Shown here in pieces: positions 8,913 to 13,859 of a DNA stretch of 50,355 bases. Position 1 is the first letter of the stretch; every line of letters begins with the position of its first letter. The DNA is from a phage. The notes beneath the pieces are model-generated. The model saw nothing but the letters and a program-made list of their open reading frames with translations, was not told the DNA's origin and ran no database searches. Both the position numbers and the translations under genes were made by a program. The stretch is from sequence record PZ871096.1; one strand, 5' to 3'.

Positions 8913-9348
8913 TAATTATAAGATCAGGGAATTTCACGGTGATATAAGCAGGTGGATTGATTCAGTAAGCAGCGGCCTTGTTGATTGCGTTGAAATGTTC
9001 GCGACAAACGTCCACGAGGATCTTGTAAATCGCTCGCCAGTTGATACGGGCCGATATAAAGCCAACTGGCAGATAACAGCAAACAAGCCGCCGCTATATG
9101 CGCTCAACCAATACGATCGCGATGGTGGTAAAACCATTGCAGAAGGTAAGCGAGCAATATATGCAATCATGCGTGGCGGTGGCGCGGTGCGATCAATCTA
9201 TTTTTCAAACATGCTCATTTACGCCAACGCGCTTGAATACGGGCATTCAAAACAAGCGCCGTCCGGCGTACTTGGAATCGTGGCGGTAAAGCTGCGATCT
9301 TATATGGCTAAGGCAATAAAGGATTCGAGGGCAAAAAATGCACTATGA
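8905..9348 (+). CDS. tail-neck component (position-based)
   Basis: ATG 8905 preceded by AAGGAGGA; 147 aa. Confidence 0.45.
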   Translation: MADNYKIREFHGDISRWIDSVSSGLVDCVEMFATNVHEDLVNRSPVDTGRYKANWQITANKPPLYALNQYDRDGGKTIAEGKRAIYAIMRGGGAVRSIYFSNMLIYANALEYGHSKQAPSGVLGIVAVKLRSYMAKAIKDSRAKNAL

Positions 9349-9739
9349 TTTAATGTTGGCGGCAAGAAAGGCGCTGGCGGCTGAATATGAATCACGATTT
9401 AAGATAGCCTATGAAAACGTTGATTTTGTTCCGCCTGGAGATGGTTCTATGTGGTTAAAATTTAACTACATGGAAGCAGACACGGATCGCATATCTCTTG
9501 ATAGAAAATGTGTTTCTTATATCGGTTTGGTTCAGGTTGGGATTGTCATTCCTCCTGGCGGTGGCACTGATAAAGCGCGTTTGCTGGCTAAAGAGATTGC
9601 GAGATTTTTCTATGATGGTAGAATGATTGAAACTGGCTATATTAGCGAGGGGGCAAACGTCCACGCATTACTAAAAAGTGAAACAGGTTGGTTATTGCCG
9701 ATCCGTTTCAGTGTTAGGCTTGATACAAAGGAGGAATAA
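9338..9739 (+). CDS. tail completion / terminator-like protein (position-based)
   Basis: 133 aa immediately upstream of major tail protein gene. Confidence 0.45.
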   Translation: MHYDLMLAARKALAAEYESRFKIAYENVDFVPPGDGSMWLKFNYMEADTDRISLDRKCVSYIGLVQVGIVIPPGGGTDKARLLAKEIARFFYDGRMIETGYISEGANVHALLKSETGWLLPIRFSVRLDTKEE

Positions 9740-9741
9740 TC

Positions 9742-10404
9742 ATGCACTTGCCTAATGGTTCTCAAATTTTCATCGGCGTTAATATGGGTAAGCCAATTCA
9801 AGCTACTGATATTTCAAACGCTAAAGATCCGGTTTTTACTGTTAGTGATTCACAGCAGATCAAGAAGGGTGCTTATGTTCTGATTGAAACATCTCCTTGG
9901 GGTAAACTGGTTAGTCGTGTGTTGCGAGTAAAAGAAGTATCTGATAACGCAAGCGTAACTCTTGAAGGTGTAGACACAACCGATCAAAACGTGTTTCCGG
10001 CTGGTTCTAATACAGCAACCTTCCGAGAAGTAAAATCATGGGTAGAGATTCCTTGCGTACAGGATCTTGCGCAGGACGGCGGCGAGCAACAGTATTACAC
10101 TTATCAGTGTTTGGCTGACGACCAGGAGCAGCAGTTACCGACCTATAAGAGCGCCGTTTCTCTTACCTACACTTTCGCGCATGAATATGATAACCCGATT
10201 TATCCGATCTTGCGCGAGGCTGAGGAATCCGGCGACGTAACCGCTTTGCGTATGTACGTTCCGAAAGCTAAAGAGATGCGTTGCTGGGCTGGCGTATTGT
10301 CCTTTAATGACATTCCGCAAACCACTATGAACGAAATGGAAACTGTTTCCCTTTCCGTATCTCTGAAAGGTCGATTTACGCTCTTATCTTCCGACATCAA
10401 TTAA
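9742..10404 (+). CDS. major tail protein
   Basis: 220 aa; SD AAGGAGG; followed by strong terminator and then chaperone/tape-measure genes. Confidence 0.65.
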   Translation: MHLPNGSQIFIGVNMGKPIQATDISNAKDPVFTVSDSQQIKKGAYVLIETSPWGKLVSRVLRVKEVSDNASVTLEGVDTTDQNVFPAGSNTATFREVKSWVEIPCVQDLAQDGGEQQYYTYQCLADDQEQQLPTYKSAVSLTYTFAHEYDNPIYPILREAEESGDVTALRMYVPKAKEMRCWAGVLSFNDIPQTTMNEMETVSLSVSLKGRFTLLSSDIN

Positions 10405-10409
10405 AACAA

Positions 10410-10430
10410 GGGGCGTTGCGCCCCTTTTTT
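10410..10430 (+). terminator. intrinsic terminator after major tail gene
   Basis: GGGGCG-ttg-CGCCCC followed by T6. Confidence 0.7.
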
Positions 10431-10503
10431 CATTCCTGTAAAATCAATCTATCAAATAAATTAATTCCACTTTTAACAAAAAGTGCTATAAGGAGATCTT
10501 GAG

Positions 10504-10821
10504 ATGGCAAAGATGAAACTAACGTTAGGCCCACTGCCTGATTTTAAGCTGCCTGTTTCTTTCGTGCTTCCAAATGGTGATGAGCAAGTTATTGTTTTTA
10601 CCGTGCGCCACAAGAAGGCAAGCGAGATTCACGAACGATACACGGCAGAAAAGCCGATGAGCGACGTAGAAATGATCACCTTCCTTGCTTCCGGTTGGGA
10701 TCTGGAAGATGAATTTAACGAGGAAAACGTTGCTAAATTGCTGGATTATTACCCTTCTGCGTCATTATCGCTGACTGGTCATTATATGAAAGCACTTGCG
10801 GGGCAGCGGGTAAAAAACTAA
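10504..10821 (+). CDS. tail assembly chaperone (lambda G-like)
   Basis: 105 aa directly upstream of tape measure; ends ...GQRVKN*; contains slippery heptamer near its 3' end. Confidence 0.7.
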   Translation: MAKMKLTLGPLPDFKLPVSFVLPNGDEQVIVFTVRHKKASEIHERYTAEKPMSDVEMITFLASGWDLEDEFNEENVAKLLDYYPSASLSLTGHYMKALAGQRVKN

Positions 10822-11138
10822 AGCGGGCGGTTTACCTGTTTTACCTCAAGCCGCCAACTGACGCACAATTAGAGGCCGTCGGCCTATCCCGTTCAGACTA
10901 CGAAGGGGAGGAGCCGCCGGAGGTAATTTTTGATGAATCAATGTTTCAATCTTGGGATCTGTTTTGCGCTATGCAGACGCAATGGAGATCGACTAGCGGC
11001 AGTGTGTATGGGTTCGACTATAACGTTTTGCCTATGCTTTTTGACATTTACAAGATTGAGGATCGGGAGATGGCGCTAAATGATTTGCGCATCATGGAAC
11101 AAAAGGCGCTAGAAATGATTCATTCAAACAAAACATAA
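10504..11138 (+). CDS. tail assembly chaperone G-T fusion produced by programmed -1 ribosomal frameshift
   Basis: Slippery site A_AAA_AAC at 10812-10818 in the G frame; the -1 frame is open from 10818 to the stop at 11136-11138 (verified codon by codon, no stop), matching ORF 10941-11138. Confidence 0.7.
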
Positions 11139-11158
11139 GCGCCGCAAGGCGCTTTTTT
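11137..11158 (+). terminator. intrinsic terminator between chaperone and tape measure
   Basis: AAGCGCC-gcaa-GGCGCTT followed by T6. Confidence 0.6.
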
Positions 11159-11177
11159 AATATCTGGAGGTTTTAAA

Positions 11178-13859
11178 ATGGCTGAGAAATACGCTGGCCT
11201 AACGCTAGGCGTTGACGTGTCGCAGGTCAACAATGCTGTTAAATCATTGCAGCAATTCAAGAAGGCAAACGACGACGCAAAAAAAAGCGTTAATGAATTT
11301 GTTGATTCTGAGGTTGTGGCGCGACAGCAAGCTAAACAGTTTGCCGAAGAACTGGCGCGCCAGAAAGCAGAATTTAAGAAAATCCAGGAGTCAATTGATC
11401 CCACCGCGTCAAAGATGGATAAGCTGCGAAAAGCAGCGACACAGCTTGATGCGCTATGGAAAAAGGGCGTTGTTCCTGATGAGACTTTTTTTGAGCTTGG
11501 GGCAATTCTTGAGACACAGCAAAACAAGCTGATCGCAACCAAAAAGGCGATGACAGAGGAAGGCCGCGCGGCGCTTGAGGAATCAAAGAACAAGGCGCGT
11601 GCAGCGGAAGAGGCTAAAAAATTCATCCAGGCTTTGCGTGAGCAGGAAGAAGCAGCCGGAAAAAGCAAGTCTGAATTGCTGGAAATGAAAGCGGCACAGC
11701 TTGGAGTTAGCCAGGAGGCGTCGCCTTACATCGCAAGACTGAAAGAGCAGGAAAAGCAGATTCAAAAACTTGGGATTTCTACAGGCCAATACAATCAAGC
11801 AATGAAGCTATTGCCAATGCAGATCACAGACGTGGTGACTTCACTTGCTTCTGGTATGCCTGTTTGGCTGGTCGCAATCCAGCAGGGCGGACAGATTAAG
11901 GATTCTTTTGGTGGCGCATCCAATGCTTTAAAAGCGTTGCTATCTTTCCTGAATCCGGTAAACGTGGCTTTTGGCTTGCTTTCCGGCACGCTGGCAATTG
12001 CTGCATATAATGCCTACAAAACACAGACAGAGTTTGAGGCAATTAAAAAAACCGTTCAGGAAACAACTGGCTTGACTGGTGATTTTGCCGAAAAGATTGC
12101 TACAGGAATCCAGGAGCTTTCCGACAAGACGGGAGAAAGCGCAGAAGATCTGGCAAAGGCTTACATCACCACGAAAGACGGCGCGAGCGAGGCGATTAAA
12201 AAACTGGTTGACGTTGGCATGACTTATGATGATGCAAAAAAGAAAGTCAACGAGTACAAAGGCGCGTCTAGCTTTGTCAGCTTGAATAACGAAATTGCAA
12301 ACCACAAAAACAAAGTCCTTGAGTTGGGCGACTCGTGGTATGAAGTTTTGAAAGCGAAGCGTGATTACGCTTCCCCGTCCGGCGGCCTGTTAGGTAAAGA
12401 GCTTGGCTATGTTAATCCTATGCTTAAGTTTGCACTTAACACTTATGAAGACATTGGAAAGGTCGTAAAAGATGCGAATAAGGACATGGCTGAACGAGCG
12501 GAGCGAATCGACAAAGAAAACCTTGCCTTGAACAGAGTGAGAGCAGCGCAGGAGGCTTTAAACAAAGCCATTGAGGATCAGAAGGGCGTGGCGCGTTCGG
12601 CTGATGAAGAACTGAAAAAGCGTGCGGCTGAAAACGTGGAGTTCAGACGCAAAGAGCTTGAGGAGATCAAGAAGCAGGAGCAGAAAAAGAAAGAGGCTAA
12701 AGGCGGAATAGTTCGCGGCCCAACTGAGCAGCTTGATAAAGAGTTGTACGTTTTAAAAGCGCAACTGGAAACGCTTAAAGAGCATCGCACTGTTAACGAT
12801 GTTATTTCTCGCCAGCGTAAATCTTTATGGAGCATCGAAAAGCAGATCGAGATCCTGGAGGATGCGCAGAGCAAGCGTAAATTGACCGGAGCGGAACAGG
12901 CGCTACTAAATGAGCAAAAATCCGTTTTGGAAATGGCAAGGCAAAAGGCTGAATTAGGGGATCAGATTGTTTTGCAGGAGCGCAAAAACAAGCTGGAGCA
13001 AGATAGCATTAAGTTTATCCGTGAAACGCAGGCGGCTATTGATGTGCTTGGACTTAAGCAACTTGGCTACACTGAAAAGCAGATCGAGCGTGAGCTAGAG
13101 TTACGCAAGCTGCGCACCGACTACGAGGCGCAAGGAGGAAGCGTTAGCGATGAAGTTTTTCAGCAAATGGAGTCGAAACTTAAGCTGTATTACCAGACAC
13201 AAGACGAGGCGCAAAGCAACTGGTTAGCTGGAGCAAAGAACGCATGGGAGCTATTCGCGGAAGATGCAAACAATGCCTATGGTAATGTTCAGCAGATAGC
13301 AAGCGAGGCGTTAAACGGCCTTACAAACCAATTAGCGAATTTTATCGCTACTGGCAAGGCAAACTTTAAAGACTTCTCGACGGCTATCATCAAAATGATT
13401 ATTCAGATGATCACGAAAATGGTTGTCTTTAATGCTTTATCTGGCCTGATGGGCGGTCAAACCTGGACGATAGGGAGCTTGCTTAAGAACATTGGCGGAT
13501 TTGCTGGCGGTGGATACACTGGCGACGGCGGTAAGTATGAGCCAGCCGGAATTGTCCATAAAGGTGAATTTGTCATGACGAAGGAGGCGACGCAGCGTAT
13601 CGGGGTAGGCAACTTGTACCGCATGATGAGAGGCTATGCTAACGGCGGCGTTGTTGGTAGTTCCGGCTATACTGGCGGTGGCGCTGTCACTGGTGGAACA
13701 CCTCAGTTTAACATTGGTGGGATTGATGTTAGCATCAATAACGGCAGCGATCCGAAGGGCATCGAAACTGGCGTTAAGATGATCTTTACTGATATGATTA
13801 AACGTTCCTGTATGCAGGGCGGGGAGGTTTACGAATTTGTTATGAGCAAGCGAGGTTGA
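11178..13859 (+). CDS. tail tape measure protein
   Basis: 893 aa, long coiled-coil-rich protein with glycine-rich C-terminal region, downstream of G/G-T. Confidence 0.85.
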   Translation: MAEKYAGLTLGVDVSQVNNAVKSLQQFKKANDDAKKSVNEFVDSEVVARQQAKQFAEELARQKAEFKKIQESIDPTASKMDKLRKAATQLDALWKKGVVPDETFFELGAILETQQNKLIATKKAMTEEGRAALEESKNKARAAEEAKKFIQALREQEEAAGKSKSELLEMKAAQLGVSQEASPYIARLKEQEKQIQKLGISTGQYNQAMKLLPMQITDVVTSLASGMPVWLVAIQQGGQIKDSFGGASNALKALLSFLNPVNVAFGLLSGTLAIAAYNAYKTQTEFEAIKKTVQETTGLTGDFAEKIATGIQELSDKTGESAEDLAKAYITTKDGASEAIKKLVDVGMTYDDAKKKVNEYKGASSFVSLNNEIANHKNKVLELGDSWYEVLKAKRDYASPSGGLLGKELGYVNPMLKFALNTYEDIGKVVKDANKDMAERAERIDKENLALNRVRAAQEALNKAIEDQKGVARSADEELKKRAAENVEFRRKELEEIKKQEQKKKEAKGGIVRGPTEQLDKELYVLKAQLETLKEHRTVNDVISRQRKSLWSIEKQIEILEDAQSKRKLTGAEQALLNEQKSVLEMARQKAELGDQIVLQERKNKLEQDSIKFIRETQAAIDVLGLKQLGYTEKQIERELELRKLRTDYEAQGGSVSDEVFQQMESKLKLYYQTQDEAQSNWLAGAKNAWELFAEDANNAYGNVQQIASEALNGLTNQLANFIATGKANFKDFSTAIIKMIIQMITKMVVFNALSGLMGGQTWTIGSLLKNIGGFAGGGYTGDGGKYEPAGIVHKGEFVMTKEATQRIGVGNLYRMMRGYANGGVVGSSGYTGGGAVTGGTPQFNIGGIDVSINNGSDPKGIETGVKMIFTDMIKRSCMQGGEVYEFVMSKRG

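What the first reader, a model, noticed from the sequence alone, without database searches (positions are those of the whole stretch)
10812..11138. Programmed -1 frameshift site for the G/G-T tail assembly chaperone, verified by hand
Seen directly: the G-like ORF (10504-10821) contains A_AAA_AAC at 10812-10818 three codons before its stop, and the -1 frame is open from 10818 through ORF 10941-11138 (45 sense codons checked, no stop). Established knowledge: lambda-like siphoviruses produce G and a G-T fusion by -1 frameshifting at such heptamers upstream of the tape measure gene. A possible stimulatory stem (GGCGG 10825-10829 / CCGCC 10851-10855) follows. The ORF track shows the T part as an orphan 65-aa ORF.
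Basis: partly seen in the sequence, partly recalled or inferred. Interest (0 to 1): 0.45.

Follow-up and report, generated by a model that had tools for sequence, protein, structure and literature searches.

The report
T1-type phage tail chaperone frameshift
This is the usual programmed -1 ribosomal frameshift by which a T1-like E. coli phage makes a short and a long tail-assembly chaperone from one mRNA; comparative evidence for it is strong, but it is already known and annotated in related phages, so it is ordinary.

Summary
ORF 10504-10821 (105 aa, Pfam Phage_TAC_4) ends ...GTA AAA AAC TAA. The heptamer A_AAA_AAC (10812-10818) is in X_XXY_YYZ register and directly abuts the stop. The -1 frame is open from 10818 to 11138 and has no ATG/GTG/TTG before 10941.

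The heptamer alone is not significant (25 copies in the window, about 22 expected). The comparative evidence is decisive:
- The heptamer-plus-stop is invariant in 57 unique Drexlerviridae sequences, including T1 and Rtp. Neighbouring synonymous sites vary freely.
- Distant prophage relatives keep it, or have G_GGA_AAC at the same place.
- The 41 start-less codons after the shift site evolve as protein in the -1 frame only (pN/pS 0.23, against 1.6 and 1.9).
- DUF1799 homology starts 19 residues upstream of the annotated ATG.

The predicted product is a 211-aa G-T fusion. The window is a Warwickvirus-like T1-type phage. Its closest GenBank records list two separate genes, but Citrobacter phage Stevie carries a joined CDS at the homologous site, and several genome papers mention this frameshift.

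It is a weakened copy of a hairpin that is strong in T1, absent in other clades, and without covariation. Verdict: supported, already known, low interest.

The parts
9742..10404 (+). Major tail (tube) protein gene, upstream neighbour that fixes the synteny
   Evidence: PF08813 Phage_tail_3, E=1e-63. Annotated as major tail protein in the relatives.
10408..10433 (+). Intrinsic-terminator-like hairpin plus T-run between the tail tube gene and G
   Evidence: 8-bp stem, 6 GC pairs, T-run. The same element is annotated as a terminator in T1, Sip, Stevie and Motto.
10490..10495 (+). Shine-Dalgarno AAGGAG, 8 nt upstream of the G start codon
   Evidence: Read directly from the sequence.
10504..10821 (+). 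G-like tail assembly chaperone ORF (105 aa), the zero-frame product
   Evidence: PF08748 Phage_TAC_4, E=5e-31, full length. phrog_17368/569.
10812..10818 (+). Slippery heptamer A_AAA_AAC in X_XXY_YYZ register of G
   Evidence: Invariant in 57/57 unique Drexlerviridae sequences. Of 102 unique wider relatives, 94 have it abutting the stop and 2 have G_GGA_AAC there.
10819..10821 (+). G stop codon TAA, directly abutting the heptamer
   Evidence: A stop occupies this exact position in 96/102 unique relatives, as TAA, TGA or TAG.
10818..10940 (+). -1 frame linker of 41 codons (LKRAVYLFYLKPPTDAQLEAVGLSRSDYEGEEPPEVIFDES) with no ATG/GTG/TTG. It can be reached only by shifting from G.
   Evidence: Variable third positions 40/41 against 20/41 and 17/41. 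pN/pS 0.23 in this frame against 1.58 and 1.90 in the others. No canonical start codon.
10826..10855 (+). Hairpin 7 nt after the heptamer: GGCGGUUU (10826-10833) pairs with AAGCCGCC (10848-10855), 14-nt loop. Candidate stimulator, unproven.
   Evidence: MFE -13.2 kcal/mol, z=-1.3. Homologous to a stronger two-part hairpin in T1 and most Tempevirinae, z -3 to -5.7. Broken in Rtp, L023 and L026/L028, with no compensatory change.
10884..11120 (+). DUF1799 (T-like) domain in the -1 frame. It starts 19 codons upstream of the annotated ATG at 10941.
   Evidence: PF08809, E=7e-12, fusion residues 128-206. phrog_17368 positions 109-211 and phrog_680.
10941..11138 (+). 'Orphan' 65-aa ORF as listed mechanically, which is the C-terminal part of the T segment. 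The stop is at 11136-11138.
   Evidence: pN/pS 0.22 in this frame.
11137..11160 (+). Intrinsic-terminator-like hairpin plus T-run between T and the tape measure gene
   Evidence: Annotated as a terminator in T1, Sip, Stevie and Motto.
11178..13859 (+). Tape measure protein gene (893 aa), downstream neighbour
   Evidence: PF06791 TMP_2, E=2e-36, and PF09718 Tape_meas_lam_C, E=4e-22.

Best explanation
The window is a T1-type siphophage (Warwickvirus-like, Drexlerviridae). Most ribosomes translating the chaperone gene 10504-10821 terminate at TAA 10819 and make the 105-aa G-like chaperone. A small fraction slip back one nucleotide on A_AAA_AAC: tRNA-Lys moves from AAA to AAA and tRNA-Asn from AAC to AAA. 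They then read CUA at 10818 and continue for 106 codons to 11138. The result is a 211-aa G-T fusion (...GQRVKN-LKRAVYLFY...) whose C-terminal part is a DUF1799 domain.

By analogy with lambda G/GT, many G copies plus a few GT copies coat the tape measure protein, and the T part recruits the tail tube protein. The low-efficiency heptamer would set a low GT:G ratio.

Shown here: the signal, its conservation, and translation of the start-less linker in the -1 frame. Inferred: the slippage mechanism, its efficiency, the chaperone roles, and any contribution of the downstream hairpin or the abutting stop codon.
For: Identity and domains
- 97% DNA identity to Warwickvirus phages.
- Gene order is tail terminator, tail tube, G, T, tape measure.
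- G is PF08748 and the -1 part is PF08809, starting 19 residues before the ATG.
- PHROG 17368 is a 213-position profile that matches G at positions 1-107 and linker plus T at 109-211.

Conservation of the signal
- AAAAAAC plus stop, with T always in the -1 frame, occurs in all clean Drexlerviridae loci, including T1 and Rtp, with G identity down to 56%.
- In 57 unique sequences the heptamer is invariant. The third position of the preceding codon has 0.00 bits although the residue is V or A. The 19 preceding third positions have 1.1-2.0 bits.
- Of 102 unique wider relatives, including enterobacterial, Pseudomonas and Opitutaceae prophages, 96 have A_AAA_AAC or G_GGA_AAC in register abutting a stop. 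G_GGA_AAC has no long homopolymer, which favours ribosomal over transcriptional slippage.

Coding signature
- The 41-codon linker has pN/pS 0.23 in the -1 frame against 1.6 and 1.9, with Arg CGG/AGG/CGA/CGC synonymous swaps immediately after the site.
- There is no canonical start codon before 10941.

Prior knowledge
- Stevie (same subfamily, same heptamer) carries a joined CDS.
- PMC4319613, PMC8104045 and PMC8407766 mention the frameshift in T1-like phages.
[quoted passage not shown] PMC4066793 lists the A_AAA_AAC IS cluster as a proven frameshift and names IS1 as an element that relies on a low-efficiency motif.
Against: - There is no direct protein or reporter evidence for this phage or, as far as I found, for any T1-like phage.
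- A_AAA_AAC is a poor shift site in E. coli.
- The downstream hairpin is weak here (z=-1.3) and not conserved across the family. No conserved upstream SD-like element exists (contexts). No stimulator is therefore established.
- A Met at 10941 is conserved in the Drexlerviridae relatives, so some independent initiation of a truncated T cannot be excluded.
- G and T share no detectable sequence similarity with lambda G and T, so the functional analogy rests on synteny and Pfam family names.
Confidence: 0.9

Rival explanations
1. Two independent genes, as in most GenBank records: G ends at 10821 and a separate 65-aa protein starts at ATG 10941. The interval 10822-10940 is non-coding.
For: The closest records annotate it this way: Sip, vB_EcoS-95, T1 RefSeq, Henu8 and Motto. 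The Met at 10941 is conserved among the Drexlerviridae relatives.
Against: - The 41 codons upstream of the ATG show a clear protein-coding substitution pattern in that frame (pN/pS 0.23; 40/41 third positions variable) and a near-invariant peptide LKRAVYL...PPT.
- Pfam DUF1799 and PHROG homology extend upstream of the ATG.
- The only SD-like GGAGG (10919-10923) lies 17 nt from the ATG.
- The invariant in-register heptamer would be left unexplained.
Confidence: 0.04
2. The fusion is made by transcriptional slippage. RNA polymerase inserts one extra A in the A6 run, giving an mRNA in which G and T are in frame (junction ...VKKLKR...).
For: The site contains a run of six A. Homopolymer length errors at this run appear in several public assemblies, which shows that polymerases used in sequencing slip there.
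Against: - Six A is shorter than the runs of about nine known to give efficient slippage by bacterial RNA polymerase (my own knowledge of Baranov et al. 2005, which I did not read; one search shows only its reference-list entry).
- The motif is always in the X_XXY_YYZ register and always ends in C, which transcriptional slippage does not require.
- Three distant relatives have G_GGA_AAC, with only three A, at the same place.
Confidence: 0.04
3. The shift is a single-tRNA P-site slip at the stop codon ('shifty stop'). With tRNA-Asn on AAC in the P site and TAA in the A site, the tRNA re-pairs on AAA before release factor acts. The protein is the same as in tandem slippage, but the abutting stop codon becomes an essential part of the signal.
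For: A zero-frame stop (TAA, TGA or TAG) directly follows the heptamer in 96 of 102 unique relatives. In lambda, five codons separate the heptamer from the G stop. In E. coli the codon after a slippery heptamer can occupy the A site before the shift, and release factor level then changes the efficiency (Horsfield 1995 as summarised in PMC4373837).
Against: - In that E. coli system a stop codon lowered frameshifting rather than raising it.
- The full heptamer, including its first base, is conserved, which a single-tRNA slip does not need.
- L055 has one sense codon between the heptamer and the stop.
- The adjacency could simply minimise the dual-coding overlap.
Confidence: 0.15

Closest known systems
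Phage lambda G / G-T tail assembly chaperones (Levin et al. 1993; Xu, Hendrix and Duda 2004, 2013, 2014; cited through review PMC5009743)
   Same: Two overlapping ORFs lie between the major tail gene and the tape measure gene. The second is in the -1 frame and has no start of its own. An in-register slippery heptamer sits at the 3' end of the first ORF. The expected outcome is a low ratio of long to short product.
   Different: - Different Pfam families: PF08748 plus PF08809 here, PF06894 plus PF06223 in lambda, with no BLAST similarity.
- Heptamer A_AAA_AAC instead of G_GGA_AAG.
- The stop abuts the heptamer here, whereas lambda has five intervening codons.
- The frameshift is shown experimentally in lambda, not here.
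Tape measure chaperone frameshift annotated in T1-like phages (Citrobacter phage Stevie KM236241, PMC4319613; E. coli phage U136B, PMC8104045; Klebsiella phage Solomon, PMC8407766)
   Same: Homologous genes in the same family (Drexlerviridae). Stevie has the identical AAAAAAC|TAA site (locus L018) and a joined CDS 10144..10775 next to the short CDS. G is 70% identical to the window's G.
   Different: There is no mechanistic difference. The closest relatives of this window (Warwickvirus records, T1 RefSeq) simply lack the joined annotation.
IS1 -1 frameshift
   Same: My recollection, not read here, is that IS1 shifts at A_AAA_AAC between insA and insB'. PMC4066793 lists the A_AAA_AAC IS cluster as a proven frameshift without an established stimulator, and names IS1 as an element that uses a low-efficiency motif to make a small amount of fusion protein.
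   Different: A transposase rather than a phage chaperone, and the proteins are unrelated.
-1 frameshift sites with a stop codon directly 3' of the heptamer (Rous sarcoma virus gag-pol, barley yellow dwarf virus; PMC4373837)
   Same: The zero-frame stop immediately follows the slippery heptamer.
   Different: These are eukaryotic viruses with strong downstream structures. The role of the stop here is untested.

Membership tests
G/G-T type programmed -1 frameshift of tailed-phage tail assembly chaperones (as defined by Xu, Hendrix and Duda 2004) | Two ORFs located between the major tail protein gene and the tape measure protein gene | tested here: met
   PF08813 at 9742-10404, G at 10504-10821, T segment to 11138, and PF06791/PF09718 at 11178-13859.
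G/G-T type programmed -1 frameshift of tailed-phage tail assembly chaperones (as defined by Xu, Hendrix and Duda 2004) | The second ORF overlaps the first in the -1 frame and lacks its own start near the overlap | tested here: met
   The -1 frame is open from 10737 to 11138, and the first ATG/GTG/TTG is at 10941. T is in the -1 frame in all clean relatives.
G/G-T type programmed -1 frameshift of tailed-phage tail assembly chaperones (as defined by Xu, Hendrix and Duda 2004) | [quoted passage not shown] | tested here: met
   A_AAA_AAC at 10812-10818. Invariant in 57/57 unique Drexlerviridae sequences. A_AAA_AAC or G_GGA_AAC abuts the stop in 96/102 wider unique relatives.
G/G-T type programmed -1 frameshift of tailed-phage tail assembly chaperones (as defined by Xu, Hendrix and Duda 2004) | Sequence downstream of the shift site is translated in the new frame | tested here: met
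   Comparative evidence only: pN/pS 0.23 in the -1 frame for the 41 start-less codons, and Pfam/PHROG homology crossing the annotated ATG.
G/G-T type programmed -1 frameshift of tailed-phage tail assembly chaperones (as defined by Xu, Hendrix and Duda 2004) | Fusion protein actually produced at a low, fixed ratio and required for tail assembly | not testable with these tools
   Needs western blot or MS of infected cells, reporter assays and phage genetics.
Lambda G (PF06894) / lambda T (PF06223) sequence families | Significant match to the lambda G and T profiles or proteins | tested here: not met
   The window proteins hit PF08748 and PF08809 only. Lambda G and T hit PF06894 and PF06223. BLASTP gives no alignment for G and E=0.97 for T. 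It works like lambda G/GT but is not a member of those sequence families.
Pfam Phage_TAC_4 (PF08748) plus DUF1799 (PF08809) chaperone pair of T1-like phages | Scores above the curated Pfam thresholds on both parts | tested here: met
   107.9 bits against a 21.1 cut-off, and 45.8 bits against a 26 cut-off.
-1 frameshift sites with a 3' RNA stimulator (hairpin or pseudoknot 5-9 nt downstream) | Stable downstream structure at the right spacing, supported by conservation or covariation | tested here: inconclusive
   An 8-bp hairpin lies 7 nt downstream at -13.2 kcal/mol, but z=-1.3. It is strong in T1 and most Tempevirinae, with reduced synonymous variability in the arms. It is broken without compensation in Rtp, L023 and L026/L028, absent in the prophage relatives, and has no real covariation.

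The most novel reading that the evidence does not exclude
Across the whole PF08748/PF08809 chaperone family, the zero-frame stop codon that directly abuts the low-efficiency heptamer (A_AAA_AAC or G_GGA_AAC followed by TAA, TGA or TAG) would be a functional part of the recoding signal. Competition between release factor and slippage, rather than an RNA structure, would then set the G:GT ratio. This would explain why clades without any downstream hairpin keep the same heptamer-stop junction.
Probability: 0.2. Interest if true: 0.3.

Novelty: already known. Interest (0 to 1): 0.12.

Why it matters
The practical value is in annotation. Most GenBank and RefSeq records of T1-like phages, including T1 itself and all the closest relatives of this window that I inspected, list G and a truncated 'T' as two separate genes and omit the 211-aa fusion. 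The survey done here gives a simple rule for annotating the whole family: A_AAA_AAC or G_GGA_AAC in register, directly followed by the stop. It also flags several public genomes with a homopolymer error at exactly this site. It adds nothing new to the biology of tail assembly chaperones or of frameshifting, apart from the minor and untested observation that the stop codon always abuts the heptamer.

Tried and rejected
- AlphaFold2 on the 211-aa fusion as a single sequence gave mean pLDDT 37. That is unusable, so no fold search was run.
- A PDB sequence search found nothing relevant. NCBIfam has no model for it.
- The search for homologous proteins with the fusion returned only three T-side ORFs of 123-136 aa and no annotated fusion. 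The evidence for prior annotation came from the Stevie record and from PHROG 17368 instead.
- Upstream Shine-Dalgarno-like stimulator: the GGGG at 10800-10803 falls in a Gly codon whose third base varies (GGG/GGT/GGA/GGC) among relatives. Rejected as a conserved element.
- Loci with an A5 run (L014/L116, L030, L096 = HCF1, L097) were considered as possible natural +1 variants and rejected. Three have neighbouring genes broken across frames. Genomes 98.5-99% identical to L014, L030 and L097 carry A6; for HCF1 (L096) the nearest A6 relatives are only about 80% identical, so only the broken-gene evidence applies there.
- ORF 10930-11079 (G frame, preceded by GGAGG and ATG 10933) was considered and rejected. 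Its pN/pS is 1.23 and the frame is open in only 5 of 44 relatives.
- The heptamer count in the window is not above chance, so motif frequency was dropped as an argument.

Full report
**What the window is**

The region 9700-11200 is 97% identical to Escherichia phages vB_EcoS-95, tonn, swan01 and Sip (Drexlerviridae, Tempevirinae, Warwickvirus), which are T1-type siphophages. Gene order around the finding is:
- tail terminator (9338-9739, PF13554);
- major tail tube protein (9742-10404, PF08813);
- the ORF 10504-10821;
- a 65-aa ORF 10941-11138;
- the tape measure protein (11178-13859, PF06791 and PF09718).

**Checking the observation**

The ORF 10504-10821 translates to 105 aa and ends ...GQRVKN*, with codons GTA AAA AAC TAA. 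The heptamer A_AAA_AAC therefore occupies 10812-10818 in the X_XXY_YYZ register. AAC is the last sense codon and the TAA abuts the heptamer.

The -1 frame is open from 10737 to the stop at 11136-11138. Its only canonical start codon is the ATG at 10941. A shift at the heptamer gives a 211-aa protein, 105 residues from G plus 106 from the -1 frame.

GGCGG is at 10826-10830, not 10825-10829.

The heptamer is not informative on its own. AAAAAAC occurs 25 times in the window against 21.8 +/- 4.2 expected.

**What the two parts are**

G matches Pfam Phage_TAC_4 (PF08748) over its whole length (E=5e-31). In the conceptual fusion, DUF1799 (PF08809, E=7e-12) covers residues 128-206, so it starts 19 residues upstream of the Met encoded at 10941.

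PHROG 17368 is a 213-position profile. G matches its positions 1-107 and the -1 frame segment matches positions 109-211, so the profile spans both parts, as a fused G-T protein would.

**Comparative test of the signal**

In 30 related loci from GenBank and IMG/VR, with G identity down to 56% and including T1 and Rtp, every clean sequence has AAAAAAC followed by TAA. T is always in the -1 frame and open across the G stop. A 41%-identical relative has G_GGA_AAC followed by TAA at the same place.

A second survey used a T-domain alignment and added 108 loci, 102 of them unique. They come from IMG/VR and from prophages in Enterobacteriaceae, Erwinia, Pantoea, Providencia, Pseudomonas and an Opitutaceae MAG.
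- 96 have A_AAA_AAC or G_GGA_AAC in register directly followed by a stop: TAA in 66, TGA in 29 and TAG in 1.
- One (L055) has a single extra codon before the stop.
- One Nitrotoga prophage (L048) has no canonical heptamer.
- One (L060) is cut at the contig start.
- Three have an A5 run.

The A5 cases, and two more from the first survey, are homopolymer errors. Neighbouring genes are broken across frames in three of the four distinct genomes. Genomes 98.5-99% identical to L014, L030 and L097 carry A6; for HCF1 (L096) the nearest A6 relatives are only about 80% identical, so only the broken-gene evidence applies there.

In 57 unique Drexlerviridae sequences, third-codon positions in the 19 G codons before the site have 1.1-2.0 bits of entropy. 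The third position of the codon that supplies heptamer base 1 has 0.00 bits, even though that residue is Val in 45 sequences and Ala in 12. This is selection on the nucleotide sequence, not on the protein.

**Test that the start-less linker is translated**

The 41 codons from 10818 to 10940 align without gaps among 21 unique relatives.
- Third positions vary in 40 of 41 codons, first positions in 20 and second positions in 17.
- pN/pS is 0.23 in the -1 frame, against 1.58 and 1.90 in the other two frames.
- The peptide LKRAVYL is invariant from the very first codon after the shift site.
- Its Arg codon is CGG, AGG, CGA or CGC in different phages.

No ATG, GTG or TTG lies in that frame before 10941, so these codons can only be reached from G.

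The rest of T behaves the same way (pN/pS 0.22). The overlapping ORF 10930-11079 does not (pN/pS 1.23, open in 5 of 44 relatives).

**Mechanism**

The best-supported reading is ribosomal -1 slippage on A_AAA_AAC. Three observations argue against transcriptional slippage:
- the strict register of the motif;
- the constant final C;
- the replacement by G_GGA_AAC, which has only three A, in distant relatives.

Both heptamers are described as low-efficiency shift sites in E. coli that are nevertheless used by IS elements when only a small amount of fusion protein is wanted (PMC4066793). A low efficiency fits the lambda paradigm, in which a G:GT ratio of about 30:1 is needed for tail assembly and neither protein is in the virion (PMC5009743). 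The chaperone roles are inferred from synteny and Pfam family names.

**The proposed stem**

GGCGGUUU (10826-10833) pairs with AAGCCGCC (10848-10855). That makes 8 bp with a 14-nt loop, 7 nt after the heptamer, at -13.2 kcal/mol. This is not better than dinucleotide shuffles (z=-1.3).

At the homologous place, T1 and most Tempevirinae have a stronger two-part hairpin: outer GGGCGGUUU/AAACCGCCC plus inner CUG/CAG, at -15 to -20 kcal/mol with z -3 to -5.7. In the window the inner stem is lost through a Gln-to-Leu change.

The informative third positions in the arms are less variable than average (0.55-0.73 bits for three of the four, 0.82 on average over all four, against a mean of 1.22). However, the helix is broken without compensation in Rtp-like phages, in L023 and in L026/L028. 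It is absent in the prophage relatives, and there is no real covariation. It may be a lineage-specific modulator, but it is not a family-wide requirement.

No conserved upstream SD-like element exists.

**The abutting stop codon**

In lambda the G_GGA_AAG heptamer (record positions 10109-10115) is followed by five codons before the G stop. In this family the stop directly follows the heptamer in nearly all sequences, and all three stop codons are used.

The arrangement is known elsewhere, in RSV and BYDV. In an E. coli test system, a stop at this position lowered frameshifting in a release-factor-dependent way (PMC4373837 summarising Horsfield 1995). Whether the stop tunes the ratio here or merely minimises the dual-coding overlap is untested.

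**Comparison with what is known, and novelty**

Functionally this is the lambda G/GT arrangement. By sequence it is not a member of the lambda G (PF06894) or T (PF06223) families.

The homologous frameshift is already annotated as a joined CDS in Citrobacter phage Stevie, in the same subfamily and with an identical site. It is also mentioned for Stevie, U136B and Solomon.

The closest relatives of this window, T1 RefSeq and several others list two separate genes. The finding is therefore a correct annotation improvement for this genome, not a new biological feature.

**Verdict**

- Observation: confirmed.
- Interpretation: supported. The stem is only partly supported.
- Novelty: already known.
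- Interest: low (0.12).
- Confidence that a G-T fusion is made by -1 frameshifting at 10812-10818: about 0.9.

Noticed in passing
window 10408-10433 and 11137-11160: The G-T cassette is bracketed by two intrinsic-terminator-like hairpins with T-runs, one after the tail tube gene and one before the tape measure gene. No sigma-70-like promoter lies between them. The same two terminators are annotated in T1, Sip, Stevie and Motto. They may attenuate read-through transcription and so help set the tube > chaperone > tape measure stoichiometry.
   Followed up: partly
L014/L116 (1801-1815), L030 (1801-1812), L096 = Citrobacter phage HCF1 MN545971 (about 1490-1500), L097 (about 1490-1500): Several public T1-like genomes have A5 instead of A6 at the shift site, which puts T in the wrong frame. 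Three of them also have frame breaks in neighbouring genes. Near-identical genomes carry A6 for L014, L030 and L097, but not for HCF1, whose nearest A6 relatives are about 80% identical. These look like homopolymer sequencing errors at exactly the recoding site.
   Followed up: yes
L048 (Candidatus Nitrotoga sp. M5 prophage), about 1440-1460: A distant relative has G ending AAG GGG AAA ATC TAG, with T in the -1 frame but no canonical X_XXY_YYZ heptamer. A single-tRNA slip on G_GGG is possible. Not analysed further.
   Followed up: no
L055 (Enterobacter quasihormaechei prophage), about 1380-1395: This is the only relative in which a sense codon separates the heptamer from the stop (A_AAA_AAC TCA TAG). 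It is a natural test case for whether the abutting stop matters.
   Followed up: no
window 10930-11079: A 49-aa ORF in the G frame, overlapping T, is preceded by GGAGG (10919-10923) and has an ATG at 10933. It shows no coding signature (pN/pS 1.23) and is open in only 5 of 44 relatives. It is spurious.
   Followed up: yes
window 10842-10850 compared with relatives (alignment A1, columns 37-45): Warwickvirus-type sequences carry Leu (CTC) where other T1-like phages have Gln (CAG). This removes the inner CUG/CAG stem of the hairpin downstream of the shift site. If the hairpin stimulates shifting, this genus should shift less efficiently than T1.
   Followed up: partly
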